A stretch of 59,133 nt of DNA, filler included, from Babesia bigemina (GCF_000981445.1; 10 parts of 10 records of this genome joined end to end with filler, not necessarily neighbours in it); one strand, 5' to 3'; positions 1-56,953 are shown, counted from the whole stretch's first letter. Notes: generated by a model not told the origin, from the letters alone. A program made the numbers and translations.

Positions 1-1
1 A

Positions 2-2132: not shown

Positions 2133-2462
2133 AGGGGGCGATTTAGATGGGTTTAGGGAGCGATTTAAGGTGGTTAAGGGGCGATTTTAGAGTAGTTAAA
2201 GGGGCGATTTTGAAGTGGTTTAAGGGCCGATGTAGAGTGGGTTAGGGAGCGATTTTGAGTGGTAAAAGGGGCGATGTAGAGTGGATAAAGGGGCGATGTA
2301 GAGTGGGTTAAGGGGCGATGTAGAGTAAGTAAAGGAGCGATGTGGAGGGGGTTAAGGGAGCGATGTAGAGTGGGTTAGGGAGCGATGTAGAGTGGATAAA
2401 GGGGCGATGTGGAGTGGATTAGGGAGCGATGTAGAGTGGATAAGGGGCGATGTAGAGTGGAT
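2133..2462 (-). repeat. 21-bp satellite A (C-rich strand CCACTCTACATCGCYCCYTWA), degraded near contig end
   Basis: Tandem GCGATGTAGAGTGG-core units on the + strand. Confidence 0.95.
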
Positions 2463-2490
2463 AATAATCATTACTTAGGTCATCTGCTTG

Positions 2491-2638
2491 GTCACCATGT
2501 CATCGCTGCCGTGACCATGTCATCGCTGCCGTGACCATGTCATCGCTGCCGTGTCCATGTCATCCATGCCGTGACCATGACGTCGCTGCCGTAATTATGT
2601 CACCGCTGCCGTGACCATGTCATCGCTGCCGTGACCAT
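2491..2638 (-). repeat. 20-bp satellite B (GTCATCGCTGCCGTRACCAT on +), about 7 units
   Basis: Direct reading of tandem units. Confidence 0.95.
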
Positions 2639-2640
2639 CA

Positions 2641-2795
2641 ACTTGGTCAGGTGGTAGGTCGTGGCATTGGTCACCACGTTGGTCATGGCATTGGTCAGCA
2701 CCTTGGTCAGCACATTGGTCAACACGTTGGTCAACACTTTGGTCAGCATCTTGGTCAGCATCTTGGTCAGCATCTTGGTCAGCACTTTAGTTAAC
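2641..2795 (-). repeat. 12-bp repeat C (TTGGTCAGCACH-like on +)
   Basis: About 12 degenerate units with a TTGGTCA core. Confidence 0.9.
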
Positions 2796-7550: not shown

Positions 7551-8536
7551 GGATGTAGAGTGGATAAAGGGGCGATGTAGAGTGGACAAAGGGGCGATGT
7601 AGAGTGGACAAAGGGGCGATGTGGAGTGGATTAAGGGGCGATGTAGAGTGGATAAGGGAGCGATGTAGAGTGGGTAAGGGGCGATGTAGAGTGGGTAAAG
7701 GGGCGATGTAGAGTGGGTAAAGGGGCGATGTAGAGTGGGTTAAGGGGCGATGTAGAGTGGGTTAAGGGGCGATGTGGAGTGGGTTAAGGGGCGATGTAGA
7801 GTGGGTTAAGGGGCGATGTGGAGTGTATAAAGGGGCGATGTGGAGTGGGTTAGGGAGCGATGTAGAGTGGGTTAGGGAGCGATGTAGAGTGGGTTAGGGA
7901 GCGATGTAGAGTGGGTTAGGGAGCGATGTAGAGTGGATAGAGGAGCGATGTAGAGTGGGTAAAGGGGCGATGTAGAGTGGGTTAAGGGGCGATGTAGAGT
8001 GGGTTAGGGAGCGATGTGGAGTGGATAAGGGAGCGATGTAGAGTGGGTTAAGGGGCGATGTAGAGTGGATAAAGGGGCTATGTAGAGTGGACAAAGGGGC
8101 GATGTAGAGTGGATTAAGGGGCGATGTAGAGTGGGTTAAGGGGCGATGTGGAGTGGATAAAGGGGCGATGTGGAGTGGATAAAGGAGCGATGTAGAGTGC
8201 ATAAAGGGGCGATGTAGAGTGGGTAAAGGGGCGATGTGGAGTGGATAAGGGGCGATGTGGAGTGGGTTAAGGAGCGATGTAGAGTGGAGAAAGGGGCGAT
8301 GTAGAGTGCGTTAGGGAGCGATGTAGAGTGGATAAAGGGGCGATGTAGAGTGGGTTAAGGGGCGATGTAGAGTGGGTTAAGGAGCGATGTGGAGTGGGTT
8401 AGGGAGCGATGTAGAGTGGATAGAGGAGCGATGTAGAGTGGATAAGGGAGCGATGTAGAGTGGGTAAGGGGCGATGTAGAGTGGGTAAAGGGACGAGTGT
8501 AGAGTGGGTAAAGGGGCGATGTAGAGTGGTTAAGGG
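7551..8536 (-). repeat. 21-bp satellite A directly upstream of the ves leader, at least 46 units, runs off contig
   Basis: Tandem units. Confidence 0.97.
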
Positions 8537-8636
8537 NNNNNNNNNNNNNNNNNNNNNNNNNNNNNNNNNNNNNNNNNNNNTTAATTAATTAANNNNNNNN
8601 NNNNNNNNNNNNNNNNNNNNNNNNNNNNNNNNNNNN
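8537..8636. other. Artificial contig linker
   Basis: N44 TTAATTAATTAA N44. Confidence 0.99.
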
Positions 8637-9310
8637 CTTATCACCCTACATCGCTCCTTTATCCACCTTACATCGCCCCTTTATCCACTCTACATCGCTC
8701 CTAATCCACTCCACATCGCCCCTTTATCCACTCTACATCGCCCCTTTATCCACTCTACATCGCCCCTTTATCCACTCTACATCGCCCCTTTATCCACCTT
8801 ACATCGCCCCTTTATCCACTCTACATCGCCCCTTTACCCACTCTACATCGCTCCCTAACCCACTCTACATCGCTCTCTAACCCACTCTACATCGCTCCCT
8901 AACCCACTCTTCATCGCCCCTTCACCCACTCTACATCGCCCCTTAACCCACTCTACATCGCTCCCTAATCCACTCTACATCGCCCCTTATCCACTCCACA
9001 TCGCCCCTTAACCCACTCTACATCGCCCCTTAACCCACTCCACATCGCCCCTTTATCCACTCTTCATCGCTCCCTAACCCACTCCACATCGCCCCTTTAT
9101 CCACTCTACATCGCCCCTTAACCCACTCTACATCGCCCCCTTATCCACTCTACATCGCCCCTTATCCACTCTACATCGCTCCCTAACCCACTCTACATCG
9201 CTCCCTAATCCACTCTACATCGCCCCTTAATCCACTCTACATCGCCCCTTATCCACTCTACATCGCTCCCTAATCCACTCTACATCGCTCCCTAACCCAC
9301 TCTACATCCC
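8637..9310 (+). repeat. 21-bp satellite A upstream of the ves leader
   Basis: Tandem CCACTCTACATCGC units. Confidence 0.97.
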
Positions 9311-9336: not shown

Positions 9337-12300
9337 ATGACCTCTTTAGACCATTATAATAACTTGTGCCTTGTCACCCTTCACTTCCCCTCTTCCACCT
9401 CTTGCCACTGCCCTGACCATGTGTCGCCTAGGTAGCTTGACAAGAAATTTGATGAAATTTAAAACCTTAAAATTACCTCAAATAACAACCCTACCAACAA
9501 CCTTACTAACCTTTGTACTGGCCTTGAGACTTTCCTCGGCTTCAACAAAGACTCCAAAGGCTACGATGGCACTGGGATTGTGTACTCTGACTTGGATAGG
9601 CTGTGTGACGGGGTGATGGGATTTTTGAGTGGTGTGCTTGAGGATGTCAGCGAGAAACAGCCTTACAGTGTGGGTAAAACAATGCTAAAAGAGTTTGTTG
9701 AGAGTGAATTAAAGCCTAAATTATCCACCGGGCGTGAGGGTTTTGAGTTCATTGCGCAGGTGGCGGGGACGGTGAGGGAGTATAATGAGAGAGTGAAAGA
9801 GTCTAACAACCATGTGAAAACCATAATAAACAATATGGACAGAGACATGAAAACGCTCCAAAATGAGGTAGGTAAAATTTTACAACATAATCCTGATTCA
9901 GAAAATTTTGATGAAGTCAAGCAGGGTGAGACCTTGGTCACTAAGCTGGCCGACGAGTATGCAAAAAAAGGTATGAATTTCGATAGTAATTTTGTCATAA
10001 GAGAAATGAATGCATGGATGACAGGTGCTAAAGTTGAGCCAAAGCAGCAATTTAAAGACTTGAATGCTGACCTGAGATTAAAAATCACCCATGCGAGAAA
10101 CAATATCACGCATGAGGCTGAGAGGCTTACGACACTGTCGAAGAAGCAGAAAGAGAATTTGGCTGCGATGACTAGTATGATCAGTAATAAGCTCAAAACG
10201 CTTAAAAGCTGTGTGAATGATAGAATTATGAAAGATGTTAATGAGCTTGTTAGCAAGGTGAATGAGAAAGTTGCGGCAATTTTGAAATTGCTAAAGAGCA
10301 TCAGTGAAACGCTTTGGGATCATGTTAATGAATTAGGGAGGTGGATTAAAGAAGCAGACGAAATTTCCGTTGACGCGGTTAAGGATGTGAAAGGTATTAT
10401 TGACAATGGTGTTGGTTGGCATAAGTCCGATCCAATCAAAGAGCAAGCAAAGCAGTTGAAAGACAAGGCTACGGAACTTTACTGGAAATTTGAGGGTGCG
10501 ACGCGGTCTGTTGAGGATGGCGTAAAAAACGCGAAAACGGAGAAAGTTAGCGAGTTGGATAAGTGGAAAGCAGCGGGCGACGCGGCCGTTAATAAGGCGA
10601 AGGAGAAGTGTGATCAGATAGTTGGGAAGTTGAAGGGGCAGGGAAGTGAGACAGGTATAGTAGGCGAACGGAAGGCAGTAACAAATGCAGCGGAGCAATT
10701 GAAGATAAAGGCCGATGAGCTTAGGGGGAAGGCGTACGCTGCTAAGACGCAGATTGAGACGTTGGTGAGTCAGGCTTTGGGGGAAGTTAAAACGATGGAC
10801 GATGCGCTGAGGACGAATTTGAGAACAGTGAGGGATGGAATTAAAAGTGGGATAATGGACTATATTAAAAATGGATTGAATGGGAAGATTAAAGTGGCGC
10901 TGACGGAGATGACCGATAAGATTGCGCATCGTGATGAAGAAAAGCCTGCAAAGCCTGGACATTTGGATAAGATTGTTAAAGGTATTAAAACGTATGCGGA
11001 GAGGTTTAGTAAGGAGGACGAGAAAACTGGTTTCAAAGGTGTAGTGAAAGGATGGTTGGCTGACATCTTGCAGAGTACGCCGGTCACGACTACGTTGGCG
11101 ACCTATATTGGCGGGAGTAAGGTCGGAACTTTGGACAATGCCGAAGGTATTGCGCAAGCAATTGTCGCTGAGCTAAAGGTGGAAGTTACGACAGCTGTTG
11201 ATACGTTCAAAAATCATGTGCAGGATGCCGGCGACTCCAGCACAAAGATTGAAGATTATATACTTGCTGTCAACAATGTCTGCGAAAAATTCGCCAAAGC
11301 AGTTGGATTGAAAATAAAAGGTCAGGTAGAAATTGGCGGGGTTTCCCGGCAAATGGCCGAAAACATTAAGCACGTTTTCACGAAAGTTCAGTCTCCGGTG
11401 GGACGTGAAAGTGACCTCGCACAAGCAATACGTTTAATTCTTCTCCAGCTCATTGGTGCCGCGAGCCAGGCTGGGAATGCAGTCCACTCTTTTGCTAGTA
11501 TCGCTGATGATGGTTTGGACGACGACGATTATGACCTGGGGAAAAACTTGACAGACGGCGTTGGTGGCGTCAAGAAGCTTGGCACTCAACTCTATCAACA
11601 GCTTCAACAAGCCGGTGGCGATAGGTCATCTCACTTTGCTGACTTTAACGGGCAGATTGCGAGCACAGTTAATCCTATTATTGGGACGGAAGATGTCACA
11701 GATAGATCACATAAAGTCACTCTTGATGAAACCAAATTCAGTGGTTACCTCCATAGCGTATCGAAAACAGTCGCTGGCAAAAAAGAGCTTATCGGCGATA
11801 CAGGCGAAGGCTCTCTCCCGCAATCCATCAAGAAGATTCAAAATGAGATCAACGAAAAGCAAGAGTATTTGAAAAACGTTAGTAACGGTGAAAGTGGCGG
11901 CAATGGAACGTTCGATGCGAAAACTTTCGAAACCTTGAATGGACAAATCACCTCCAACCTCACCGCCTTCACCGGCGCCGTCGAGCAGCTTGTTAAAAAG
12001 GACAGAGTCAATACAACCGTAAATGCCTACCTAGAAGATGTGTCTCTTCTGCTCAATAGTGGAGATCCCGTTGACCTCAAGTCCGATATAAAAGATACCC
12101 ACCCCTCCGTCAAAGGCCTCGTGACGATCAAAGAAGAAATCGACTCCGCGCTCGACGGGATTAAAAATAAAGCTGACGCAGAATTTGATGCCGCAAAAGC
12201 AACTACAGACAGCGGAAACATATTCACAACTTTGTCCACCGCGATCACTACGAATCTCAAAGACCTTTTGGCAGCTTTCGAGGAGGCAGGCAAACAAGTG

Positions 12301-12763
12301 AACAAACATTTGCAAAAATTAAAAACCAACATCGGCAAGAAGGAACATGGCGCTGATGCTGCAGTTGGTACGCTGCAGAAAATCCACGACAATCTTGTTA
12401 CCTTGTTGAACGGTGACATTAGCCAAGTCATCAATGACGCCACTGCCTTCAAAAAACAAGCCAATCAATTGCGTGATAAAACAATCGGAGCACTCAACGG
12501 ACACGTCGAAGATGAAGTTAAAAAAGCCGAAACCGCCCTCATCACCCAGGCCAACAAAAACTACGTCACGTCCGTCAAAGAGATGCTGACTGCCTTCGCC
12601 GACAAGGTGCAGAAGGAACTGAAGCCCCTCCCCGGCGAGATCGACACCGACAGGCAGCACGGCTTTAAGGGTTTCATGCGGACGTTGCAGGGGACGTTCA
12701 ACGGTGATGAGACTTTGACTGACAATATTGACAAACTCAAGGGTCTCGTAAGTGAACTGTCAG
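9337..12763 (+). CDS. ves1: ves1b-type antigen, 5' part. Leader ATG 9337 is in frame but interrupted by TAG 9433 and TAA 9460; next in-frame ATG is 9616 (MGFL); 3' end cut by the contig end. Coding or pseudogene status unresolved.
   Basis: GIVYSDLDRLCDGVMGFL motif, coiled-coil centre, FADKVQKELKPLPGEI motif shared with the 2913 gene. Confidence 0.8.
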
Positions 12764-12863: not shown

Positions 12864-12945
12864 CTAAACGTTCTGCTGTCACTATCGTAATACACATAGC
12901 GTTGTCTGCTAACGTTTTGTGAGCGACATTCCCTTTTGCGTAACA

Positions 12946-18270: not shown

Positions 18271-18347
18271 GTAGAGTGGATTAGGGAGCGGTGTAGGGTG
18301 GATAAAGGGGCGATGTAGAGTGGGTAAAGGGGCGATGTGGAGTGGGT
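18271..18347 (-). repeat. 21-bp satellite A, edge of array
   Basis: 3-4 units, then junction sequence TAATAATCACCACTT. Confidence 0.9.
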
Positions 18348-18363
18348 AATAATCACCACTTCG

Positions 18364-18925
18364 GTCATGTCATCGCTGCCGTAACCATGTCATCGCTGCC
18401 GTGACCATGTCATCGCTGCCGTAACCATGTCATCGCTGCCGTAACCATGTCATCGCTGCCGTGACCATGTCATCGCTGCCGTCACCACGTCATCGCTGCC
18501 GTGACCGTGTCATCGCTGCCGTGACCATGCCATCGCTGCCGTGTCCATGTCATCGCTGCCGTAACCATGTCATCGCTGCCTAACCATGTCATCGCTGCCG
18601 TGACCATGTCATCGCTGCCGAGACCATGTCATCGCTGCCGTGACCATGTCATCGCTGCCGAGACCATGTCATCGCTGCCGTGTCCATGTCATCGCTGCCG
18701 TGACCATGTCATCGCTGCCGTGTCCATGTCATCGCTGCCGTGACCATGTCATCGCTGCCGTGTCCATGTCATCGCTGCTGTAACCATGTCATCGCTGCTG
18801 TGACCATGTCATCGCTGCCGTAACCATGTCATCGCTGCCGTGACCATGTCATCGCTGCTGTAACCATGTCATCGCTGCTGTGACCATGTCTTTGCTGCCG
18901 TAACCATGTCATCGCTGCCGTAACA
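18364..18925 (-). repeat. 20-bp satellite B, about 28 units
   Basis: Tandem GTCATCGCTGCCGTRACCAT. Confidence 0.97.
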
Positions 18926-18928
18926 TTA

Positions 18929-19115
18929 ACTTGGTCAGGTGCTTGGTCATCACGTTGGTCAGCACATTGGTCAGCACTTTGGTCATGGCATTGGTCAACA
19001 CGTTGGTCAGACATTGGTCACCACTTTGGTCAGCACCTTGGTCAGCACTCTGGTCATGGCATTGGTCAGCACCTTGGTCAGCACATTGGTCATCACGTTG
19101 GTCACCACTTTAGTT
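18929..19115 (-). repeat. 12-bp repeat C (TTGGTCA core), about 15 units
   Basis: Direct reading. Confidence 0.9.
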
Positions 19116-19233: not shown

Positions 19234-22200
19234 TTATGGTTGCAGATAAAACACTTTGCCCAGTTTGTTAACACGTGCTGCGGCGAGTAGTGATTGAGCG
19301 GCTATACGATGACTCGAGGGACTATGTAGATGCGATTTGATGTGGAGCAGGTCGAGGCGGATGACCATGATGTGGAGGAGGTACAGGACAGAGAGGAGCC
19401 AGAGAGCGAGGACAAGGTAGGAGAAGGGTTCGCGGATTCTCCACAGTAACATGTCGCATTGCTTAAATAGGTCAGTGAAATAGTCGGAGTTAACAACATT
19501 GTACAGGTGACTTCGCATGTTGAAGCAGTTTCTTTTTAACGATATCAAATTCTGCGCATCCCTGAATGTGAAACCGTATTGGTATAACGTTGGCGATACG
19601 CCGTTGCAATGCACAACGGAAGTACATTGGCAACCCGTTCCTTTCTCCGCCGGATTAAGCATACCATGACTCTCTCCCTTGCATATATCGGTATGCAAGC
19701 AGTTCCTGCATCCCCAGTCTTCACATCTTATAGCCTTAAACGCGTCGAGGAGACTTGCAAGATATTTATGGAATGTCCACGGCAAGTAAACTGCCCATGA
19801 CAGGTACGAGTTAGATTGCTTGTTGACAAGGTAATGATAAGTGTCGCAGCTTAGGGGGGATAGGTACGGGACGCAGTGCTCCTGAGTGATGCAGGAATTG
19901 GTCAGTGAAATGCACGACAGATTAAGTTTATTGTTGGTACGATTCGGGCTGCGATGCTCGGTTGGTGTATTGCCATAGGCTTTACACATCGGTGTTGTCA
20001 ACTCATCCGTATTTTCATACAGCTTGATGGAGCTAGCGTTAATAGAATTTGCGATGGTGTCTGCCAATGTTTTAATGCCGTCAACCTTACTCTGCTTTGA
20101 AGCACTAAGTCCCTTGGCAAGTGACACTGCAAACTGGAAGTGCTCCGGCAAGTTAGTTGGAGGCCTGGGTGCGAGGGTGAATAGACACGCAATAATACCG
20201 TTGCCTAATATCTCTTTAATAATGCGGCATAATTGTTCACCCGTTTTAATTGACCCAGAAAAGCCTCTGAATCCAAGGGGCGTTAAGCATGGCATTCCAG
20301 GCTTATTACCGGGGCACGTTTTGCATTCGGATTTACAACCGACATTCGTGAGCTGATGAGGCAAGTGACCCGGCAAACAGTCATTTAAGTAACTCATCAA
20401 CGGAGAGGTTGGCTGGCAATTTGGTTGACTGTTTGGTTGACTGTTTGGTCGGCACTTTGGTTGACACTTTGCCTGGCACGTTACTTCCTCCGTTGATCTG
20501 TCGTTACAATGCGATTTGGTCGTAGGCACATTTTTACCGTACTGGCAGTCCGCCCAACCGAACTCCATGGCCGAATAACTACACTTGGATTCGAGGAATC
20601 GGAACACGGAGAGCAATCTACGAAGCATGTCGACTAACATTGGCAAGCAGTCGTCCGCCGTCTTAGGGTAATGCAGCTTGAGGGAATTGTTTGCGTATTC
20701 GCAGGCGTACCTGGTGTGCTCATCACCTGTGCCGGCGATTCTAGCCAACACGTCGTATGATTTGGAGCAAATTAGTTCAATCACAGCATAGATATCTTTA
20801 TATGTGAACTTATGTGGATGCGCATCCAGGTAGTACGCGTTTTCATCATCGAACTCAATTTCAATTCCCGAGTCACCGCTATCTATGGCTTGCTTCTTAG
20901 GTTTATCAAGCAGCTTGGTGATGCCGCCAGGTAACGCTGAATATACGGTACTATGAGGGAGCCCTGAGAACCAGCAGAGTATTTCGTATATACTGCACGG
21001 ATGCCTTTTGGAGAATAACGTTGATAGATGACATACTTCGTTATACTCGTCGAGGTGACTGTAGAGGCATGCTATGAAATCCATGATATTAAAGTTCCAT
21101 TCTTTCTCCCGTGATCTACACTGCGGAACGTGTTCTAGATTCGACATTTGTATGATCTTACCGAGAATTCCATCGATATGTTTGCCAGTGAACGTATGTC
21201 TGCACTGCAGCTCCCCGTCCTGATGCGACTTCTGACTGGTAGGAACAATGTAACCGCACTGCTTGAGGAACTCACCAAGAGGGTTTTCTTTATCAATTTC
21301 ATCTTTAAGATGTATAGCTTTCTTGCTCCAACTACCCTCGCACCTCCTCTTCAACTCCCCGAGGTCCTCCACCCACATCGGCAGGCAGCTCATAAACACC
21401 TTGGCGCAGCGCGTAGCGTCGGCGGCTGTCTCCTGTTTGCCGCCCTTTACCTCCTCCCAAGTAATTCCCTTACTACCACAATACCTATTAACATACGCCT
21501 TTTCCATCTCCTTTACCAGCCCTTGCATCCCTGCCTTCAGCGCATCCAGGAGTTGCGGGTGGTGCGGGTTCGCGAAGGTAGCGGGGTCGAACGAGGACAG
21601 GGTGGAGGTCAGGTCGTGGAGGAGGGAGCGGAAACCGGAGTCAAAGGTGAAGGTGCGTTTGTTGTCGTGGAGGTGGGACAGGAGGGCGTGGGTGCGGGCT
21701 TGGAGGCCGGCGACCAGTTGGGAGGAGGGGGTGGGGGTGAGTTGGGAGGTGATGTAGGTAAAGAGGGGATGTAAGTAATGTCTAATTTTATCTGCTGTCC
21801 ATTTTGACTCTTGTACGCCCGTAAGTTCCGTAAGTGTTTTGTGATTTTGATTCATGTACCAGAGCAGGCACTTGATACCGCTGGCTCTGTCCTCGTCGAT
21901 GATGTGATCGATGGCGGAAATTTGAGTGGAGACGAGGGATCTGAGGGCTTCTAAGTCCGATTTGTGTTGGATGGCATACATTTTTCTCACATGGGTAGTG
22001 ACGACGGTAAAGGCAGATTCGGCTTTAGTGAGGAGGGTTGTTTTGAGTTCTGAGACAGCTTTAACAAGCGACGTTTTGGCAGTTTTTGAAGTTTCTCGTA
22101 AAGCTTTTATGGCATCTTGTAGAGCGCCGTCAGCAAGTTCTACAGCTTCACTAATGGCTCTTACTTTTGTTTTAATCTTACTTCTCAAGACCTCCATCTT

Positions 22201-25200
22201 CTGTAAAGCATTCTGCCTAGCATTGTCGACTTTTTTTGGAAGTGATTCTAAATCGTTGATTATGCTATTCATATATCGTGCATTGGTGTTTGACGTGACT
22301 TGTGAAACTCTTTTCTGTAGCGCTTCAAGGTTACTATATATATCGGTCAGTTTATCCACTTCGTCAGGGTATATACCATTATCGTCACCAACCATGGCTC
22401 CGAGTTTTGCCAAATGGTAACTAAGACTATTGTTTTTTCCCCCATCGCTCTTCTCGACCAAATCCTTAACGGCGCCGGTAAATTCGCTGAGTCGAGTGTA
22501 CACCGCTAGAAGGGCATCGGAGAGTACAGTTGCAGTAATAAATTCGGTACCATTGTTATTCAACGCTCCTGTTACTTTTGTTTCAATATCCCTAATTTTC
22601 CGGGGCAGTGTGCCTCCCAGCTTATCGAGTGGACCCGAAAGGCTGGATTGAGTAATTTGGCGTTCATAATTTAGAAAAACTCCAGCCTTTAAACTGACGC
22701 TGTTGGTTGTATGATCGTCGCCAATGGCGGCATTAAGTTTTCCGTATACATCACTTTCAAAGGCTGACTTTCCTAGCTTACCGCTGAGACCATCGTAGGC
22801 GCCTTTAAAAGCATTCATGAGGCCATCTCTACCATTTATCTGTATATCATTTTTGCCAGTACCTGGAATATGTTTTTCAACTTCCGCAGCGACATCCTTG
22901 TCGGCGTTATACATTGAAAGATCAACCGAGGTGCCATCTGCGGATACAAGAGTGGCGGAACCAGAGACAATTCCAGTATGGCGGTCACTTTGAGCTTCAA
23001 CAAGATTATTGAGAAGAGTCTCCGCTGTTTTGTAAGCGTCGTCCACATTCACAATTTTTGATTGCTTTAGTTGGTCCTGGAGATCGGTAAACGCTTTCAA
23101 CTCCGTGGCGGCTTGATTGGCTGTGTATTACAGCGCTATTACAATGTAACGGACGGCAGCCTGAAGATAGTTTTTCAGAGTTCGTGTTTTGTTAGCCTTT
23201 TTCACTGCTTTATCTTCGATTGCATCCACTATGCCATCGACAAACGCATCGCTACTAGCGGTGACATTCATAATTGTTATTTGATCATTAAGCTTCCTCG
23301 CAAACCCACTTATGCAAGCGTGTATTTTTTGAACGCATTTCGAGATGTCATCATCGTCAGAAACTGAAGTGAAAGTGAAAGCTCCTGAGATCCCCTTCAG
23401 CTTGTTCTTGATCTGCACTGCGATGTCATTGATTCTTCCCGATTCTATGGCACAATTATTCTCGTTCACATATTGCGGCTCGAAATACTCCCTTCCCTTG
23501 TTCTTTTGAACGTACTGCTCAATATATTTTCTCACCACGTTATTATTTTTTAAAATGTTTTCTAACCATATTATCACCGTATTCTCAAACCCTGTTGTCT
23601 GCTTGAACTGCTTTGCATACGTCGAAGTGACGTGTTTCACATATCCGTGCAAACCGTTGCCATTTCCATCATTGCCCTTAATAGCGCTAACTTGCGTCTG
23701 AATTGTTTTGAGAAGATTCTTAACATGGTTTTGCAAACTACTGACAAGCTTCATTTCTAAGCCATGTAAATCCCCTTTCACATTATTTTCTAGACCATCC
23801 CAATACTGTGTCTTCAAAAGATTGACATGACTCCAAATTTCATCTCTTATTCTCCCTTTCACAATTCGTAAATCTTTCTTAAGCTCCTCGTCCATTGTCT
23901 TAACAGCCTGTAATGCCACATTAATACTACTTGTAAGTGCTTTCTTAGCCTCCGCTATGGACGTCATAAATCTATCAGCCTTTTCTTTTAGATTATCAGC
24001 TGCGAATTGAACTTTTTGATATTCCGCACTTGAGAGCCTATCTTTGTCTAGTTTCATGATAATGTCACCAATCTTTGTTTTCACTGCATAAACGACATCT
24101 TGCGCCTTTTTTTTCCATTCATTCAACTTGCGATTCTCCGTTACCATGTCCACACGAATGTGCGTCGTATCCATCATCATTGCGCTGAATTTCTGCTTCA
24201 GGTTAGAATCGGATGTTTCAGTGCTCGTAATATCACTCATTTGGTCGTTCACATCTGCAAAGAGTTTTTCGATTTCATTTCTGTAATCGTTGCTAAATTC
24301 GTCATGTAAAAACGCATCAGCTTCTTTCAATTTTTCGTGGATACCTTGAAACTGATCTTTTTTCTTATCTTCCAAAGCGGAGACGCTTCGACGAATTTTA
24401 TATAATTCCTTATGCACATCATCTCCGACTTTTTCACACACCTGATCGACGTGTTTCTTAACGTCATTCCTTTGCCACTCCAACTCTGCGTCCACCCTCT
24501 GCACCTGTGTCAACAAATCCGGATTTTTTGCAGATTTATTTAACATTTCTACCGATTTCTTAACAATCTTTATCTCATTCATTACGTTGGTTTTTAACGA
24601 TTTATCAAGCTCACTAATTTTATCTTCTTCAATTTGGCTGACGTCAAAGTCAATGTTACCGATAACCTCCGACCAAGTCGACAGCTGATCAGTGAGGGAA
24701 GAGTTTTCATTAATTTTATTTTTGTAATTACCGTTCATATTATTAATTAACCAAGTTAATTCATCTGTTACTTTTTTGGTTTTATCATTTATCTCCCTCT
24801 CATACCCCTCCAACCACTCCTTCACCGCGCCGACAGCATCCGCAAGCCCTTCACGCCCGGAGCCAATTTTACTATCTACAAGTTTGAGAACACTTTTAAG
24901 CTTTTTAGTGTCTCCACTGATGTAATTATCATAAGTTGTCACCTCATTTTCGTTTTTCACCGCATCAAGCACACCACTCAAAAACGCCATCACCCCGTCA
25001 CACAGCCTGTCCAGGTCGGAGTACACAATCCCAGTGCCATCGTAGCCTTTGGAAGCAGAGTTGAAGCCGAGGAAAGTCTCGAGGCCAGTGCAAAGGTTAG
25101 TAAGGATGTTAGTAGGGTTGTTATTTGAGGTATTTTTGAGGTTCAAAATTTCATCGAATTTCTTGCCAGGCTCCCTAGGCGGCACACGGTCAGGGCAGTG

Positions 25201-25269
25201 GCAAGAGGTAGAAGAGAGGAAGTGAAGGGTGACAAGGCACAAGTTATTAGGATGGTTTATAGAGGTCAT
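19234..25269 (-). pseudogene. ves1: Full-length ves1b-type gene (2011 codons) with a single in-frame TAA at 23130..23128
   Basis: ORFs 23128..25269 and 19234..23100 are in the same frame (offset 2169 nt). Reads AVRYIVIAL*YTANQAATELKAF versus AIRALLTALQSTVQRINDELQTF in the 29829 paralog. C-terminal TM and tail are intact. Confidence 0.85.
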
Positions 25270-25296: not shown

Positions 25297-25907
25297 GGAT
25301 GTGGAGTGGGTTAAGGGAGCGATGTAGAGTGGGTTAGGGAGCGATGTAGAGTGGGTTAAAGAGCGATGTAGAGTGGATAAAGGGGCGATGTAGAGTGGAT
25401 AAAGGAGCGATGTAGAGTGGATAAAGGGGCGATGTAGAGTGGGTTAAGGAGCGATGTAGAGTGGGTTAAGGAGCGATGTAGAGTGGGTTAAGGGGCGATG
25501 TAGAGTGGGTAAAGGGGCGATGTAGAGTGGGTTAGGGAGCGATGTAGAGTGGATTAAGGGGCGATGTAGAGTGGGTTAAGGGGCGATGTAGAGTGGGTTA
25601 AGGGGCGATGTAGAGTGGGTAGAGGAGCGATGTAGAGTGGGTTAAGGGGCGATGTAGAGTGGATAAGGGAGCGATGTAGAGTGGATAAAGGGGCGATGTA
25701 GAGTGGATAAAGGAGCGATGTAGAGTGGATAAAGGGGCGATGTAGAGTGGGTTAAGGAGCGATGTGGAGTGGATAAGGGGCGATGTAGAGTGGATTAAGG
25801 GGCGATGTAGAGTGGATAAAGGGGCGATGTAGAGTGGGTTAAGGAGCGATGTAGAGTGGGTTAAGGAGCGATGTAGAGTGGGTAAAGGAGCGATGTGGAG
25901 TGGGTAA
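25297..25907 (-). repeat. 21-bp satellite A, complete array of about 29 units
   Basis: Both ends visible within one contig. Confidence 0.97.
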
Positions 25908-25929
25908 TAATCACCACTTAGGTCACCAC

Positions 25930-27871
25930 TGTCATCGCTGCCGTAACCATGTCATCGCTGCCGTGTCCATGTCGTCGCTGCCGTGTTGATGTCATCGCTG
26001 CCGTGACCATGTCATCGCTGCCGTGACCATGTCATCGCTGTCGTAACCATGTCATCGCTGCCGTGACCATGTCATCGCTGTCGTAACCATGTCATCGCTG
26101 CCGTAACTATGTCATCGCTGCCGTAACCAAGACATCGCTGCCGTAACCAAGACATCGCTGCCGTGACCATGTCATCGCTGTCGTAACCATGTCATCGCTG
26201 CCGTGACCATGTCATCGCTGTCGTAACCATGTCATCGCTGCCGTAACCAAGACATCGCTGCCGTAACCAAGACATCGCTGCCGTGACCATGACATCGCTG
26301 CCGTGACCATGTCATCGCTGCCGTAACCAAGACATCGCTGCCGTGACCATGACATCGCTGCCGTGACCATGTCATCGCTGCCGTAACCATGTCATCGCTG
26401 CCGTGTCCATGTCATCGCTGCCGTGACCAAGACATCGCTGCCGTCACCACTGTCATCGCTGCCGTAACCATGTCATCGCTGCCGTGTCCATGTCGTCGCT
26501 GCCGTGTTGATGTCATCGCTGCCGTGACCATGTCATCGCTGTCGTAACCATGTCATCGCTGCCGTGACCATGTCATCGCTGTCGTAACCATGTCATCGCT
26601 GCCGTAACTATGTCATCGCTGCCGTAACCAAGACATCGCTGCCGTAACCAAGACATCGCTGCCGTGACCATGACATCGCTGCCTCAACCATGTCATCGCT
26701 GCCTCAACCATGTCATCGCTGCCTCAACCATGTCATCGCTGCCGTGACCGTGTCATCGCTGCCGTGACCATGTCATCGCTGTCGTAACCATGTCATCGCT
26801 GCCGTAACTATGTCATCGCTGCCGTAACCAAGACATCGCTGCCGTAACCAAGACATCGCTGCCGTGACCATGACATCGCTGCCTCAACCATGTCATCGCT
26901 GCCTCAACCATGTCATCGCTGCCTCAACCATGTCATCGCTGCCGTGACCGTGTCATCGCTGCCGTGACCGTGTCATCGCTGCCGTGACCATGTCATCGCT
27001 GCTGTAGCCATGTCATCGCTGCCGTGACCATGACATCGCTGCCGTGACCATGTCATCGCTGCCGTGTCCATGTCGTCGCTGCCGTGTTGATGTCATCGCT
27101 GCCGTGACCATGTCATCGCTGTCGTAACCATGTCATCGCTGCCGTGACCATGTCATCGCTGTCGTAACCATGTCATCGCTGCCGTAACTATGTCATCGCT
27201 GCCGTAACCAAGACATCGCTGCCGTAACCAAGACATCGCTGCCGTAACCATGTCATCGCTGCCGTGACCGTGTCATCGCTGCCGTGACCATGTCATCGCT
27301 GCCGTAACCATGTCATCGCTGCCGTAACCATGTCATCGCTGCCGTGACCGTGTCATCGCTGCCGTGACCATGTCATCGCTGCTGTAGCCATGTCATCGCT
27401 GCCGTGACCATGACATCGCTGCCGTGACCATGTCATCGCTGCTGTAGCCATGTCATCGCTGCCGTGACCATGACATCGCTGCCGTGTCCATGTCACCGCT
27501 GCCGTGTCCATGTCATCGCTGCCGTAACCATGCCATCGCTGCCGTAACCATGTCATCGCTGCCGTTGCCATGTCATCGCTGCCGTGACCAAGACATCGCT
27601 GCCGTAACCATGTCATCGCTGCCGTAATTATGTCATCGCTGCCGTGACCATATCATCGCTGCCGTGTCCATGTCATCGCTGCCGTGACCAAGACATCGCT
27701 GCCGTGACCATGTCATCGCTGCCGTGACCATGTCATCGCTGCCGTAACCATGTCATCGCTGTCGTAGCCATGTCATCGCTGCTGTGTCCATGTCATCGCT
27801 GCTGTGTCCATGTCATCGCTGCTGTGTCCATGTCATTGCTGCCGTGTCCATGTCATCGCTGCAGTAACCAT
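25930..27871 (-). repeat. 20-bp satellite B, about 97 units with higher-order duplications
   Basis: Tandem units; variant blocks recur. Confidence 0.97.
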
Positions 27872-27873
27872 CA

Positions 27874-27980
27874 ACTTGGTCAGGTGCTTGGTCAGCACTT
27901 TGGTCACCACTCTGGTCATGGCATTGGTCAGCACTTTGGTCAGCCACTAGGTCACTCACTGCTCATGTGATTGGTCAGCA
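27874..27980 (-). repeat. 12-bp repeat C (TTGGTCA core)
   Basis: About 7 degenerate units. Confidence 0.85.
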
Positions 27981-28077: not shown

Positions 28078-28960
28078 TCAGCTGTAGAACGCGATGCAGA
28101 AGGGTATCTTGCGTACGAGGAAATCGCGGATGTTGCGGCCCACCGGAAAGCGGAAGATGCACAGGTCGAGCAGGATGATGGCGACGATGAGGGCAACGAT
28201 GACGGCGGCGATGGCTTTGGGGTCAGGGCGGAAAGGTGGAGCTTTGTTTTCTAGCTTGAGAGCTTCGGGAGGAGATTGATGCTCTTGTTTGGCGGCTTGT
28301 TGCTGAGCTTCGGAGGAATCAGGGAGAGAATGTTGACTGGTGGAATGAAGGGAGGCGGCGGCAAGGCGTTTACTTTCCTCTTCACGTTTATGTAAACAAC
28401 ATTTACACTCACATTGACATGTATTCCCGTTGCCTCTACATTGGTCGTTACATGGCGTAGGTTCGCACTTGTAAGACCTCAGGTTACCAGTGCGCTTATT
28501 GCGATCATACCAACATCCATTGCAATTGCCAGAAGATTTAGTACACTCAACACAACACCAATAACAACAGATACAATTGAGAAACCTACAACTCGTAACA
28601 CACGTACACTTCCGCCAATCCAACCCTGACATCTTCCCTCTCCCTCCCACTCCCCTCAAGCTGCAAACATATCAATTACCTAAGCAAACACTCACCAACT
28701 GCAACACGTACCACTGCCGCTCCCAGTCCCCTCAACCTGCAAACATATCAATCACCTAGCAAAGCACTCACCAACTGCAACACGTACACTGCCGCGCCCA
28801 GTCGCATCAACCTGCAGACATATCAATCACTAACCAACGCACTCACCAACTGCAACACGTACCACTGCCGCTCCCAGTCCCCTTAACCTGCAAACTTATC
28901 AATCACTTAAGCAGCACTCACCAACTTCAACACTACCACTGCCGCTCCCAGTCCCCTCAT
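28078..28960 (-). CDS. Predicted 5-exon, 247-aa small Cys-rich membrane protein with a ves-family-like C-terminus. Exons 28960-28922, 28887-28847, 28811-28772, 28736-28696, 28660-28078.
   Basis: Last exon is the 193-aa ORF (Cys-rich domain, TM IAAVIVALIVAIILLDLCIF, tail RFPVGRNIRDFLVRKIPFCIAFYS). Four GTGAGT...TGCAG introns of 34-35 nt splice to a stop-free 744-nt frame from ATG 28960. Confidence 0.6.
28644..28960 (-). repeat. About 75-bp tandem repeat, about 4.2 units, each one mini-exon plus one mini-intron
   Basis: Unit on - strand: GTTGAGGGGACTGGGAGCGGCAGTGGTACGTGTTGCAGTTG|GTGAGTGCTTTGCTAGGTGATTGATATGTTTGCAG. Confidence 0.92.
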
Positions 28961-29828: not shown

Positions 29829-32800
29829 TTACGGCTGTAGATACGATATCTTGGCAAGCCTTCCGACTTGCGCTGCCGCCAACAATGATTGCGCCGTTAT
29901 CCTGTGCGACGACGGTGTTCGCAGGTGTGAGCGTATGTGGAGCACATCCAGTCTGCCAACCATTACGCAAATGAGGTAGAAGAGGGACAGTGACCAGAGC
30001 GCGACGTTCATCCACAAGAAAGGTGCGCGGATGGTGAACATGAATTTATCAATGGCTTTGAAAAACTGCACAAGATGTGAGTCCTTCTCAAATGCCTCCG
30101 CAAATACATAGCAGAAATCTCTGCACGTGCGTTTCTTCTCAATGCCTGCGCTTCCGTTCAGCCTCTCTGGATCGCCGAGAACGAAGCCGTACTTCGCCAA
30201 TGTCGGCAGCGTAGCATTGCACTGTACAATGGATTTGCAATTGCGATCGTGATATCGTGGCGGATCTTTTTTGGATGTAGTAGGACACCCCTTGATGCAC
30301 GATTTACCATGGCAATTCGATCCCCTGGCACCGCATTTGGAATTGCACTCATCATACAATTTCTTAAGCAGATCGTAGAACGATGCCGTCAGGTAAACGA
30401 TCCACGACAAATACTTATCGGCGTGTTTTGACGAGAACGTCTCGTAGATGGCGTGAGTGATGGGCCGCAAATAAGGACCGCATACTACGGCGTCCCTTGA
30501 TAAGCATACGAGACTGCCCAGGCTACCATCGGAGTGGCCCTTCTTCAATGCTGAGTGACTAGGGGTAAATAAGTGGTAGACGTTCAACTCACCATAACTA
30601 CGTCCGAAATTGGCTGCTTTAACTTTCTCCTCAAATGCCTCTTTCTTGTGTTTGTTACCGTGCATACCCCAGCGATCGGTGAGGTGATAGTAGAAGCTGA
30701 ACATGTCCGTTAGTGTTTTCGGAGCACTGGGTAGCAGGCAGTTGAGGTAACCGCACAGTCTAGTGAGAGGGGAGTTAGGACGGCCACAAAAATCGTAAAG
30801 CACCTCGCATATATTGCGGCCCATCATCGTATGCGACGCGGTGGCACCGATGTCAGCGAAGCCCATCGGAGTTCGGCACGGCATACCAGGTGTACTACCA
30901 CACGTGCCACATGACAGACTGGATCCCCTAGCCGTAACCGAATGCGGCAGGTGGCCTTTCAAACCGTCCTCCAAGAACGATTGCAGTGGCGACTTGACGC
31001 CGCAGTTGGGATATTGGCCACCCGTTTGGTTGCCACTTTGGTCATGCCGTTGGTCGCAGTCTTGCTTAGGGCACTGCTTCGTGTTGCACTGCCAGCCCGA
31101 CCCACCGATGTACCTGCCGTAGTGGCAGTCCCTCCAGCCGCTGAGCTGAGTTGTAAGTTGACACTGCTGCAGCAGGAAGTACAGCTGGTGGTAGAGGCGC
31201 TTGAGCAGGTCGAACAACGTACACAGTAACTGAATCATGCTGGTTGGGTAATCTAACTTGAGCGAGTTGTCGGAGAATTCACACGCGTAGATTCCGTCCT
31301 TGTGACCGTGGCCTAGTATAGCAGTGAGGACGGCGTGGGAGTGGGCAGACACATTGTAGAGCTGCTTTTCGACGTCAGTGTATTTGACAGGTGACGGGTG
31401 CGCTTCGAAGGGCTGCAGCGTTTTAGTACCCGGCCTTTGCTTGTCCTCCTTCATGAACTCAGATTCAACGTGCTTCTTGAACCTCTCGTACACGGGGTTG
31501 AACTGCAGGCCGCAGCACCAGACGAGAATTTCGTAAACGGAGCAAGGAGCCCGGGGTTTCTCAATACGAGTAAGGTGGCATACGGTGAAGTAATCGTGTA
31601 GACTTGAATATAGCTTTTGAACGACGCCATCATCCGTGGCGACCTCTACGGTCAGGTCAGCAGAACCATCGGTACGGAGAAGTGAGGCATCCGCGGGCTC
31701 ACCTGCGACGAACAACTTATGTTCAGCGTTTGTGAGATGTTTGAGAATGCTGCTACCGTTGAAGTCTTGTCTGTGATTCAGCTCGCCATATGGAATGGTC
31801 GGCTGAGCACCAATGTCGTAACCCTGATCATGGAAGAATGTTTTGTGCAAACTATGATTGGGGTTCGTGGAATCGTACATTTTGTAGCTTTCCCAGCCTT
31901 CAGCATCAAGTCCAGATTTGAGGTGATCAAGTGCAGTGTATACAATGGGAATCATGCTTAGACACACCATTGCGCCACGTTTTCCGTCAAGTGTTAATTC
32001 GACATCTTTCTGTTTCGCACTTTCGGATGATGCCTTATCCTTCAGTGTGTCGACGGTAGTTGTCGTTTTAGATTTTTCGGAATCAGGCAGCTCTATCACC
32101 CAGTGCTTGATGGGCTTCGCTCCTTCGTACATGTTTATGTAGGTCTTGTCAAGCTCGCCAACCAGACCCATAAAACCTAATCTTAGAGCGTCTAGAATTA
32201 ATGCGGAAGACTCACAGAGCTTGTCGGATGTCAAGCCGCCAAGTGCCTTTCTAAGCCTGTTTAGGTAGTCCATGAACGTCCTATCATACCGCTGCGAATC
32301 TTCGATGGCAGTAAGCAGCATACGCAATGCGTCGTGTGACGGGTTGGCTTTACCAAAATTGTACGTAAGATCCGGCTGTTTAGCTAGATAATGGAAGAGA
32401 CGCTTTAATGCTCCGTAAAGTTTCGTTGATGCTTGGCTAAGCGGCGATTTTTGTCCAGGGGAAGCTTTATCCGGAATCTTTTTCAAGGCCTGCAAACCTT
32501 TCTCGTGCTTGAGGAACTGAGTGTCCATTATGCTCATAAACCCCTTAAATCCGGACTCCGACTCTTTAGTGATCAACCCAGGCAGCGGTTGTAATTCCGT
32601 CTCAGCTTTTGTTGAAAAAGCCACGAGCAGACCTTGTAGAGATGTAACGTACTGCTTTCTGGCTTGTGTGATTAAAGTCCTCTTAGCGCTCTCCACTTGT
32701 GAATCGACGTCTCTTCCTAGTGCCTGGATGGTGGCGGTACCGGAGTGGTCTACAGTTCCAAGAAATTTTTTGGCAGCATCCAGGGCTACTGCGACCGGAT

Positions 32801-35114
32801 GTTTCAAATCGTTGAAGGAGTGTTGAAGTTCCTGGAGTTCACCTTTATTGGGAGTTTTTCCAACCTTAAAATTTTTAAGGTTCTCTAATTTTTTGTTTGC
32901 GAAAAAAGCGGCATCAGATATTGTGCGTGTGAGCAACTTGAGAGTATCAGTAATTTTAGTGGACATCTCGGTAATAGCTTTGGTAGTTATCTCCACTGTG
33001 ATGTCGTTAATTTGGGATTTCAAAGAGCCGCCATCTTCTTTCAGTATTGGGTCGAGATCGTTAACTCTCCCTGTCACAGCCGACAATGAATCAGTGATCT
33101 GTCGAGCTAAACTAGTATTGTGATTGTCATCTATGCTAATGTTTTGTTTAATCTGTTTGATCTTGTCTACAGTGCCCTTCACGTTGATGCCGAGATCGCA
33201 TAGCGATACGGCAAATGTTTGCAGTTCGTCGTTAATTCGCTGTACAGTGGATTGTAAAGCTGTTAGAAGTGCACGAATCGCAGACTTAAGATGTGAATCG
33301 CTGTAGCTGATGTAACTCGGAGGCCTACCTTTGGTACAAAAAACACTCTCAATATCTCCGCATATCTCCTCCGCAAATTTCAATACCGCATTAGTTGGAT
33401 CATTGAACTTATCTGCTATCGCTTGCGCAAACCTACCGCAAACCTCCTGGACATATTCCACTTTCTTCTTCAAGTTCTTGCTTTTTATTACAACGTCGCT
33501 TTCTGCACGGGCACTGCTTATTTGGTTGCTCAGCTTATTCTTAATCCTCGTTGCGATTCCTTGAATATTTTTATAATTCAATTCATCTTTTTCGGTAGTT
33601 ACATATTCCGCATTAAACGGAAAGCCATTTTTTAATCTATCCTTATTTTCGCTTATATACCTCTTCATACAATATTTAACTGCAGCATTATTTTTTAAAG
33701 CATCACTCACCCACTGTTCCACCTTCTTTCCAAACTCATCCGCATTGAATCCACTAGCATACTCCTCAATACCGTTAACAATTTTATCTAGATGGCCATT
33801 TTTGATTGTATTTGTCACACCTGAACCCAGCGTTTGTAGTTCACTACTAAGGAAATGCCAATCCTTCACTAATCCCTGCTTACTTCCACCGACTTCTCCT
33901 TGAACGTTTAATTTCAACACTTTAAAATACTCTTCAACCTGCGTAACCAACCCTGTGAGTCCACCTTTTACTGTGCTCTCAATATACGTACTAAGCTCAT
34001 CCCTACGTTTCCTTAATTCCGTCACCGCATCCTCAATAGGATATTTCAGACTAGTAAGGCTGTTGTCGGTCTGCTCAGTAATTTTTTTCAGATGTCCCTG
34101 CGTGACTTCAATTTCTTTATCAGCATTGTTGATCCATTCCTGTAATTCGTCAACGTGCTGCGGCAGCTCTTTGTTTATCTTCTCAAGCTGCTGGAATATC
34201 GTCTGCACCATCTGCCTCAAACCGCGGATCAACTCATTTACTTTATTACCAATTTCGCGATTAACGCACGTACCAACACCTACGAGCGTTGTTTTAATAC
34301 ACGCCTCCAAGCTCTGAAAGCGCTCCTTCTCCTTCGCTGCCAACTCACTCAACCTGGTTTTCTCATGCACAACGGTCCTACGTACATTATCTATTCTATC
34401 ACGTAATTTATCACTAAGATCATTAATTGCGTTTCTAGTTGTTTCATCATTATTCTGCATATCTAAAGTTTTATTAAAGTCGGCGGCTCTCTTTTCATAT
34501 TCTGCCAACCTCCTCTGGACCTCTTCCGCAGCTTGTTCATATTTCAAAGTCTCATCTGCTACACGATTATTTTGTACAATTTCACTTACCGTTTTTTTGA
34601 GTCTCTTCATCTCTCTGTCGAAATCTGTTATTTTGTTCTTGACATGGTTGCTGGAATTTCTGACACCATCATTATACCTCCCCACCCCTTCGACCACCTT
34701 TACAATCGCATCATTAAAACCTTTTTTACCGGCGTGTTTATTGGTGTTAAGACTCTCAATTGCATCATTCAAAGTATCTTTATGCTGCCCTAAATGCTCT
34801 TTGATGTTACTGAGAACACCACTCAAAAATCCCATCACTGCATCACACAGCCTGTCAAGGTCAGAGTACACAATACCACTGCCATCGTAGCCTTTGGAAG
34901 CAGAGTTGAAGCCGAGGAAAGTCTCGAGGCCGGAGCAGAAATTAGTAAGGATGTTAGTAGGGTTGTTATTTGAGGTATTTTTAAGGTTTTAAATTTTGTC
35001 AAATTTCTTGCCAAGCTCCCTAGGCGGCACATGGTCAGGGCAGTGGCAAGAGGTGGAGGAAGGAAAGTGAAGGGTGACAAGGCACAAGTTATTATTGTGG
35101 TCTAAAGAGGTCAT
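29829..35114 (-). CDS. ves1: ves1b-type antigen of a second C-terminal subclass. Leader ATG 35114 is in frame but has TAA at 34991; open from 34988 to the stop; first downstream ATG is 34835 (MGFL).
   Basis: GIVYSDLDRLCD, KSPLQSFLED..GHLPH, GMPCRTPMGF, TM FLWMNVALWSLSLFYLICVMVG, tail RLDVLHIRSHLRTPSSHRITAQSLL...YLQP. Confidence 0.85.
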
Positions 35115-37784: not shown

Positions 37785-37809
37785 AGCGGTATTATGGCGA
37801 GGTGATTCG

Positions 37810-52237: not shown

Positions 52238-52310
52238 TATTTGAGGATTTTATCTCAGTATTGTTCTTCTTGTATCTTTTTTTTTTTTTTCTCACAGCTT
52301 TATTGAGGTA

Positions 52311-56951: not shown

Positions 56952-56953
56952 CA

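What the first reader, a model, noticed from the sequence alone, without database searches (positions are those of the whole stretch)
9337..9618. Shared ves leader is open in some copies and stopped at different codons in others: uORF switch or silent cassette archive
Seen: five copies share the leader MTS..H.NN.CLVTLH..SSTSCHCPD...PRE..KKFD.I.N.K.TSNN, in frame with the gene and with no frameshifts. It is open in the 7523 and 25269 copies. It is stopped at codon 33 (TAG 9433) and 42 (TAA 9460), at codon 42 (34991), and at codon 40 (37667) in the others. I found no conserved GT-AG pair spanning the stops. Stopped copies become a 32-41 codon uORF ahead of the conserved MGFL/MAFL ATG (9616, 34835, 37505). 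The longer N-terminal domain I recall for VESA1 is absent. Inference: either 5'-truncated silent donors for segmental conversion, or single-base translational on/off control (compare the var2csa uORF).
Basis: partly seen in the sequence, partly recalled or inferred. Interest (0 to 1): 0.78.

Follow-up and report, generated by a model that had tools for sequence, protein, structure and literature searches.

The report
Headless ves1b copies in repeat arrays
These are tandem copies of a cattle blood parasite's (Babesia bigemina-type) variant surface antigen gene that lack the gene's normal front end and sit behind repeat arrays; the stop codons are in the sequence, and the copies are likely a silent archive that donates pieces to full-length expressed genes, not an on/off translation switch.

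Summary
All stops and coordinates are confirmed, plus a sixth, differently joined copy and a body stop in the 'open' 25269 copy; only 7523 is whole. The genes are Babesia bigemina-type ves1b. Full-length ves1b begin with a conserved block (KLTDCPENL, IDWLIQV) found nowhere in the window; the 9 of 18 proteomically detected VESA1b that I could match all have it. The MGFL Met is an internal residue downstream of the family's most conserved motif, so restarting there is unlikely. The leader is poorly constrained (7 of 49 positions invariant against 26 of 43 just downstream) and caps bodies scattered over the ves1b tree. Copies share DNA mainly in the first ~300 and last ~250 coding bases and follow 12/20/22-bp repeat arrays. 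Truncated copies swap long identical tracts with each other and with two unplaced full-length genes. Best reading: a repeat-capped, 5'-truncated donor archive, VSG-like in layout; the stops are tolerated damage. Against: codons 1-20 show a synonymous excess, stops cluster more than a shuffle gives, and no reads were available. The uORF switch has no support.

The parts
8642..9308 (+). 22-bp tandem array (30 copies, cut by a contig gap) ending 28 bases before the leader ATG
9337..9495 (+). Shared leader (codons 1-53), weakly constrained; likely a chimera of intron-1-like and internal exon-2 sequence
   Evidence: origin inferred
9433..9435 (+). TAG, codon 33
9460..9462 (+). TAA, codon 42 (shared with the 35114 copy)
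9496..9630 (+). Conserved ves1b block (NLC..GLE.FLG to IVYSDLDRLCD..M.FL); the ATG at 9616 is its internal Met
9631..12763 (+). Variable ves1b body, open to the contig gap
2913..7523 (-). 5'-truncated ves1b copy, open from leader ATG to the family C-terminus (1,536 aa)
7552..8533 (-). 22-bp array upstream of the 7523 copy, cut by a gap
2133..2785 (-). 12-, 20- and 22-bp arrays following the 7523 copy
19234..25269 (-). 5'-truncated ves1b copy, leader open, TAG at codon 714 (23128-23130)
18271..19108 (-). 12-, 20- and 22-bp arrays following the 25269 copy
25298..27960 (-). Complete spacer: 12-bp, 20-bp (97 copies) and 22-bp (28 copies) arrays directly ahead of the 25269 leader; no exon-1 motif
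28078..28671 (-). Cysteine-rich, single-transmembrane 3' gene fragment (P0136) inside the array; ves1a-type tail by recall only
   Evidence: atlas gave no hit at 0.9 or more
29829..35114 (-). 5'-truncated ves1b copy, TAA at codon 42 (34989-34991), body open to the family C-terminus
35143..36169 (-). 22-bp array upstream of the 35114 copy, cut by a gap
36270..37784 (-). 5'-truncated ves1b copy, TAA at codon 40 (37665-37667), body cut by a gap
37809..38631 (-). 22-bp array upstream of the 37784 copy
49788..51734 (+). 22-bp array (89 copies) upstream of the sixth copy
51759..52079 (+). Sixth copy: same first ~25 codons, then another ves1b N-terminal segment; stops at codons 44, 53, 106; a second leader-like ATG block at 51895 is out of frame with the ves segment

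Best explanation
The five copies are 5'-truncated ves1b genes in repeat-spaced tandem arrays that likely serve as silent donors, their variable bodies likely being copied by gene conversion into full-length expressed ves1b genes, so that stops in the leader would cost nothing. Shown: the stops; absence of the conserved N-terminal block from the whole window, including the one gap-free 4.5-kb upstream stretch; DNA homology between copies mostly confined to both ends; a [12][20][22]-bp repeat spacer; weak constraint on the leader; tract exchange among family members. Inferred: that the copies are not transcribed on their own; that the leader is a relic junction (3' end of intron 1 and/or an internal N/S/P-rich segment fused to exon-2 sequence) spread by homogenisation; that repeat plus first ~300 bases and the last ~250 bases act as conversion anchors; that full-length genes like P0117/P0121 are recipients. 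Direction of transfer is not shown.
For: No match to the exon-1 or IDWL motifs in six frames of the window. 20 of 91 B. bigemina models retrieved are full-length: 18 of 24 on chromosome-size contigs, 2 of 67 on small contigs (search biased to leader relatives). 9 of 18 VESA1b rows of the proteomics sheet of PMC4066756 could be matched by tag, 9 of 9 full-length. In 27 full-length or near-full-length ves1b, 13 of 32 invariant columns lie in the missing block and 16 more before the MGFL Met. In 27 leader rows, 7 of 49 positions invariant (codons 2-50) against 26 of 43 (51-93), p=4e-6, with more radical changes. Codons 21-50 in the five copies look neutral (4 synonymous of 16 changes, 4.7 expected), codons 51-98 constrained (22 of 43, 12.8 expected, p=0.001). 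Leader copies are scattered on the C-terminal tree: 12 changes for 13 rows, shuffled mean 12.4 (quick tree). Identical tracts of 30 aa or more: 32 of 2,485 truncated-truncated pairs, 2 of 1,278 with chromosomal full-length genes, 5 of 142 with P0117/P0121 (p=2e-4, pairs not independent). 34 of 49 truncated models have P0121 or P0117 as best N-terminal match among six full-length genes, starting at staggered points. Bodies break too: codon 714 here, and 6 of 12 short relatives end early without a 'partial' label.
Against: No RNA or DNA reads were examined. Codons 1-20 show a synonymous excess in the leader frame (9 of 21 changes, 4.5 expected, p=0.01), and 24 database models keep leader and gene in one frame, so the leader frame is or was under some coding constraint. 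Three stop alleles in codons 21-50 exceed the 0.6 expected from the same changes placed at random (p=0.012, post hoc), which plain neutrality does not predict. Five of six copies end in a gap inside the 22-bp array, so an exon further upstream is excluded only for 25269. The proteomics used one strain's peptides against another's proteome and I searched only rows labelled as variant antigens. The window's own copies share few long tracts with full-length genes (best 23 aa). The published RNA-seq table lacks 12 of 12 leader-type genes looked up but also the 4 full-length ones, so it tells nothing. The intron-1 match is 6 of 7 residues and chance matches that good occur elsewhere in the window.
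Confidence: 0.6

Rival explanations
1. Plain decay: truncated duplicates amplified by repeat-driven recombination in unstable arrays, never used as donors; bodies stay open only because they are young or are refreshed from functional genes.
For: Tract sharing has no direction; frameshifted and stopped sister copies are common; long tracts shared with chromosomal full-length genes are rare, 2 of 1,278 pairs.
Against: Bodies are very divergent from each other yet hold 1 stop in 6,705 codons here; the conserved block stays constrained; the repeat-leader-body-end layout is uniform over 6 copies.
Confidence: 0.2
2. The leader ATG is a real start for a short VESA1b subfamily; open copies make protein and stopped copies are ordinary recent pseudogenes of that subfamily.
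For: Synonymous excess in codons 1-20 (p=0.01; pN/pS 0.37 in frame against 1.14 and 1.46 in the other frames); 24 database models start in or include the leader in frame; no indels in 27 rows; residues 4-10 resemble an internal coding segment in register.
Against: Lacks 13 invariant N-terminal columns; leader residues vary radically; predicted pLDDT under 50 for residues 1-53 (weak evidence); none of 9 matched expressed VESA1b is of this type; database models are open by selection.
Confidence: 0.12
3. uORF or read-through switch: a single base turns the leader into a uORF that controls translation from the MGFL ATG, as with var2csa.
For: Stops cluster in codons 33-42 beyond a shuffle; no stop between codon 43 and 93 in 5 copies.
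Against: The Met is internal and replaced in P0022, P0056, P0094, P0116; restarting there drops 29 of 32 invariant columns; uORF length varies and 1-3 out-of-frame ATGs intervene; var2csa has one conserved uORF on a conserved single gene with reversible control (PMC4437904 passages), whereas a DNA stop is not reversible per stage; codons 51-93 are constrained as protein, which a 5' UTR would not be.
Confidence: 0.04
4. Artefact or splicing: the stops are base-call errors, or lie in an intron as in the public model P0066.
For: Draft contigs; in-frame GT-AG pairs exist in 3 of 3 stopped copies; P0066 is modelled so.
Against: The codon-42 stop recurs on two contigs; donors are far from consensus and the skipped part would include the conserved NLC..GLE helix; the one acceptor-like site shared by all five copies lies upstream of the stops; 7 further models start downstream of the stop zone, as if their leaders were broken too (inferred).
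Confidence: 0.04

Closest known systems
BbigVes1b family of Babesia bigemina (Jackson et al. 2014, PMC4066756)
   Same: Large single-transmembrane VESA1-type proteins with the conserved C-terminus; top hits are B. bigemina 'hypothetical, conserved' models and tagged ves1b loci.
   Different: The paper's sections I read describe about 80 ves1b, transposition and mosaicism, but no class of 5'-truncated, repeat-capped copies; these lack the N-terminal block of every matched expressed VESA1b.
Truncated ves1 of Babesia bovis as proposed functional pseudogenes; segmental gene conversion into the LAT (PMC2034396, PMC7485966)
   Same: Truncated non-LAT copies proposed as donors; conversion tracts of about 109 bases match the 30-70 aa identical tracts seen here.
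   Different: No head-to-head pair is shown here (the apparent one spans a gap); copies are head-to-tail with a shared leader and three repeat arrays; ves1b is not orthologous to ves1-beta.
Trypanosoma brucei silent VSG archive with 70-bp repeats; Anaplasma msp2 pseudogenes (PMC3467770)
   Same: Arrays of largely broken variant genes, upstream repeats, conserved flanks around a variable middle, mosaics.
   Different: Unrelated genes; no expression site carrying the 22-bp array has been shown; role of the repeats here is inferred only.
var2csa uORF of Plasmodium falciparum (PMC4437904)
   Same: A short ORF ahead of a downstream ATG in a variant surface antigen locus.
   Different: One conserved gene with a fixed, reversible uORF and an intact main ORF; here the short ORF is made by scattered nonsense changes and the downstream ATG is internal.

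Membership tests
BbigVes1b | Conserved VESA1 C-terminal domain with transmembrane helix | tested here: met
   3 of 3 complete window copies fall among tagged ves1b on the C-terminal tree; Pfam VESA1_N only marginal (E=0.003, below cut-off, 1 of 6 pieces)
BbigVes1b | Conserved N-terminal core (FLG..KGY.G.GIVYSD.DRL.D) | tested here: met
BbigVes1b (expression-competent form) | N-terminal block KLTDCPENL / IDWLIQV | tested here: not met
   absent from six frames of the window; upstream gap-free only for the 25269 copy
Silent donor archive for gene conversion | Copies cannot make the full product in place | tested here: met
   6 of 6 lack the N-terminal block within their contigs; 5 of 6 carry stops
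Silent donor archive for gene conversion | Conserved flanks around a variable middle | tested here: met
   DNA matches in the first ~300 bases (86-90%) in 10 of 10 pairs; last ~250 coding bases in 1 of 3 pairs of complete copies
Silent donor archive for gene conversion | Sequence exchange with full-length members | tested here: inconclusive
   5 of 142 pairs with P0117/P0121, 2 of 1,278 with chromosomal genes; no direction
Silent donor archive for gene conversion | Transcriptional silence and appearance of donor tracts in expressed mRNA | not testable with these tools
   no reads obtained; published table uninformative
var2csa-type uORF control | Conserved uORF upstream of the true start of an intact main ORF | tested here: not met
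   uORF 32-41 codons or absent; downstream ATG is an internal, non-invariant Met
var2csa-type uORF control | Transcript present, translation repressed and reversible | not testable with these tools
   needs RNA and ribosome data
B. bovis-type LAT (divergent ves1 pair) | Head-to-head pair with short shared promoter | tested here: inconclusive
   7523 and 9337 face apart only across an N-linker; linked copies are head-to-tail

The most novel reading that the evidence does not exclude
B. bigemina has evolved a trypanosome-like cassette system: dozens of headless ves1b cassettes, each capped by a 22-bp repeat array and a homogenised ~300-base anchor, are converted whole or in part into one or a few dedicated full-length expression genes of the P0117/P0121 type, and nonsense changes in the anchor are favoured because they keep donors from making protein.
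Probability: 0.3. Interest if true: 0.75.

Novelty: new variant of a known kind. Interest (0 to 1): 0.5.

Why it matters
How B. bigemina varies its erythrocyte surface antigen is open: PMC9806345 calls the role of its VES proteins unknown, and many ves1b loci could not be assembled across strains (PMC4066756, Table 2). If the truncated arrays are the archive, the repertoire is larger than the annotated ~80 genes, many 'hypothetical' models starting at MTS or MGFL are mis-started, and the 22-bp array, the shared leader and the two candidate full-length recipients give direct handles for finding the expression site. The sister species B. caballi has 481 ves1c genes with one dominant transcript near a contig end (PMC10463595), so the layout may be wider.

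Tried and rejected
No whole genome is held for this window, so the genome-wide stop table could not be made; no sequencing runs were obtained, so stops, splicing and expression are untested. Metagenome scan: 7 loci of 271 candidate stretches, all 10-17-residue chance matches, unused. Representative search with the first 60 residues: 21 hits, 20 of them already-seen B. bigemina models and one unrelated repeat protein, P0135; no leader hit named from another species. Pfam gave only coiled-coil noise for 10 full-length and leader proteins. G-quadruplex excess in the 22-bp arrays: none over shuffles in 7 of 7 arrays. A shared acceptor-like site in the leader cannot bypass the stops, which lie behind it. 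Search for more intron read-through models gave 10 hits and no new example. B. ovata GFF3 supplement that would show the ves1b intron is not readable. RNA-seq table look-ups uninformative. Folds were low-confidence (mean pLDDT 64 and 67) and give no contacts; no fold search was run. The careful tree did not finish; the quick tree was used. Earlier-findings look-ups returned nothing.

Full report
OBSERVATION. The five leaders, their frames, the four stop codons and the codon-94 ATGs are exactly as reported. Stops are much denser in the leader than in the bodies: 3 distinct alleles in 250 codons against 1 in 6,705, Fisher p=2e-4, post hoc. Additions: the 25269 copy has a TAG at codon 714, so only 7523 is open end to end; a sixth copy at +51759 shares the first ~25 codons, then joins another ves1b segment and has three stops. 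The window is a chain of contigs with nine N-linkers; five of six leaders have a 22-bp array that runs into a gap, and only 25269 has gap-free upstream DNA.

IDENTITY. A search with residues 1-110 of the open copy gave 130 proteins (120 listed), all named B. bigemina or B. ovata; 12 shorter ones followed. Tagged ves1b loci of the proteomics sheet of PMC4066756 are among them, and the three complete window copies lie among these on a C-terminal tree. The genes are ves1b. Rap-1 genes on other contigs fit the species.

WHAT IS MISSING. Full-length ves1b start with KLTDCPENL then IDWLIQV and have roughly 135-300 residues before the IVYS motif; the leader copies have 80. Neither motif occurs in six frames of the window. 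In an alignment of 27 full-length or near-full-length proteins of two species, 32 columns are invariant within the 1,162 residues of the first row: 13 in the missing block, 16 more before the MGFL Met, 3 after (the C-terminal domain is not counted because the first row lacks it). That Met is internal and is replaced in P0022, P0056, P0094 and P0116. Of 91 B. bigemina models retrieved, 20 are full-length: 18 of 24 on chromosome-size contigs and 2 of 67 on small contigs (the search favours leader relatives and classes rest on public gene models, so this is no census). Of 18 VESA1b rows in the proteomics sheet, 9 could be matched by tag and 9 of 9 are full-length; the peptides came from another strain than the reference and I searched only rows labelled as variant antigens.

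WHAT THE LEADER IS. It is not a fixed N-terminus. The same first 15-25 codons are joined to different internal points of the ves1b N-terminus in different models (P0019, P0031, P0099, P0020, P0056, and the sixth copy), and public models start in all three frames of it or read the ves segment out of frame. From about codon 21 it matches internal coding sequence of full-length genes (P0036, P0039). Bases 38-58 read SPFTSLL in the next frame, 6 of 7 like the residues just before SIDWL in P0086 and P0059, where four models of two species switch from pyrimidine-rich sequence to the conserved protein; this suggests the 3' end of intron 1. It is a lead only: matches that good occur by chance elsewhere in the window, no DNA of a full-length gene was available, and residues 4-10 also resemble an internal N/S/P-rich coding segment in register.

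CONSTRAINT. In 27 distinct leader rows (5 window, 22 database; P0001 and P0066 left out) 7 of 49 positions are invariant in codons 2-50 against 26 of 43 in 51-93, p=4e-6; mean BLOSUM of changes -0.96 against -0.24, p=0.04. On DNA of the five copies, codons 21-50 look neutral (4 synonymous of 16, 4.7 expected) and 51-98 constrained (22 of 43, 12.8 expected, p=0.001). Two results go against simple decay: codons 1-20 have 9 synonymous of 21 changes (4.5 expected, p=0.01), and the three stop alleles exceed the 0.6 expected (p=0.012, post hoc); the leader-versus-core contrast in synonymous share is itself not significant on five copies (p=0.18). A fold of the open copy's first 350 residues has pLDDT under 50 for 1-53, while a full-length relative has helices at 10-25 and 31-62 with pLDDT about 57-67; weak evidence.

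LAYOUT AND EXCHANGE. Each unit reads 22-bp array, 28 bases, leader, conserved block, variable body, conserved end, then 12-, 20- and 22-bp arrays again. All 10 pairs of copies match at 86-90% over the first ~300 bases (one pair extends to ~550 at 76%); beyond that blastn finds only the last ~250 coding bases and one 180-base stretch, in one pair. On a quick tree of 95 C-terminal rows (42 proteins without an intact C-terminus dropped), the 13 small-contig leader rows need 12 changes, as many as shuffled labels (mean 12.4), so one homogenised leader caps bodies from all over the family. Identical tracts of 30 residues or more join 32 of 2,485 truncated pairs, 2 of 1,278 pairs with chromosomal full-length genes, and 5 of 142 pairs with the two small-contig full-length genes P0117 and P0121 (p=2e-4, pairs not independent). 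These two are also the best N-terminal match, among six full-length genes, for 34 of 49 truncated models, at staggered start points; 8 had no hit. The window's own copies share tracts of up to 70 residues with truncated models but at most 23 with a full-length one. Bodies break as well: 6 of 12 short relatives end early without a 'partial' label, though assembly errors may contribute.

MECHANISM. Most likely (0.6) these are headless donors: deletions removed the first exon and part of the second, the junction was spread through repeat-spaced arrays, and conversion moves body sequence among copies and, by inference, into full-length expressed genes. The conserved block stays constrained because it is exchanged with functional genes; the leader upstream of it has no counterpart to be copied into, so stops there are tolerated. 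Rivals: pure decay (0.2), a translated short subfamily with ordinary pseudogenes (0.12), a uORF switch (0.04), splicing or sequencing error (0.04). In-frame GT-AG pairs spanning the stops exist in 3 of 3 stopped copies and P0066 is modelled with one, but donors are poor and conserved residues would be lost.

COMPARISON AND NOVELTY. Truncated ves1 as functional pseudogenes was proposed for B. bovis (PMC2034396, passages), where segmental conversion with tracts of about 109 bases is shown (PMC7485966, passages; PMC6630957, passages). The layout works like the VSG archive with upstream repeats (PMC3467770, passages) without being related to it. It fails the var2csa test (PMC4437904, passages). 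For B. bigemina I read passages and sections 22 (part 1 of 2), 23, 24, 25 and two supplement searches of PMC4066756, passages of PMC5660447, PMC10463595 and PMC9806345 with part of section 14 and supplement rows; none describes repeat-capped truncated ves1b arrays. Eight library searches (listings only for papers not named here) found no such description; figures, subscription papers and the B. ovata GFF3 supplement were not seen and could bear on this. The RNA-seq table lists 23 unplaced-contig genes, about ten of 4.5-6.3 kb at low, blood-only counts, none of which I could tie to the leader class; 0 of 12 leader-type and 0 of 4 full-length genes looked up were in it, so it is uninformative.

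VERDICT. Observation confirmed; donor-archive reading favoured, switch reading unsupported. New variant of a known kind; interest 0.5. The bold form, a dedicated cassette-and-expression-site system with P0117/P0121-type recipients and stops favoured in donors, has probability about 0.3 and would merit 0.75.

Noticed in passing
window, nine N44-TTAATTAATTAA-N44 linkers (e.g. 8537-8636): The window is a chain of at least ten contigs; orientations across linkers mean nothing.
   Followed up: yes
12913-16311, 39645-42729, 44577-48018: Repeated rap-1 locus pieces; Pfam RAP-1 above cut-off for the 3 ORFs tested.
   Followed up: partly
52180-59133: Sequence that reads like ruminant SINE/LINE host DNA (a YADD reverse-transcriptase motif near 54920; SINE resemblance is recalled), with 8.5 CCCTAA units at 52914-52964. 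Likely host contamination.
   Followed up: no
28078-28671 (-): Cysteine-rich single-transmembrane 3' fragment (P0136) sits inside the array ahead of the same 12/20/22-bp spacer; ves1a-type by recall, so the arrays may archive ves1a pieces too.
   Followed up: partly
28644-28959 and 29476-29682: Further 76-bp and 24-bp repeats after the 35114 copy.
   Followed up: no
51759 and 51895: The leader's first 60 bases occur twice in the sixth copy (40 of 60 identical); the second overlaps real ves coding sequence in another frame. Origin unexplained.
   Followed up: partly
P0003 and P0057: Two models with different N-terminal joins share an identical last 702 residues.
   Followed up: partly
1-2032 (+): Open-ended coiled-coil frame weakly like ves1b bodies.
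   Followed up: no
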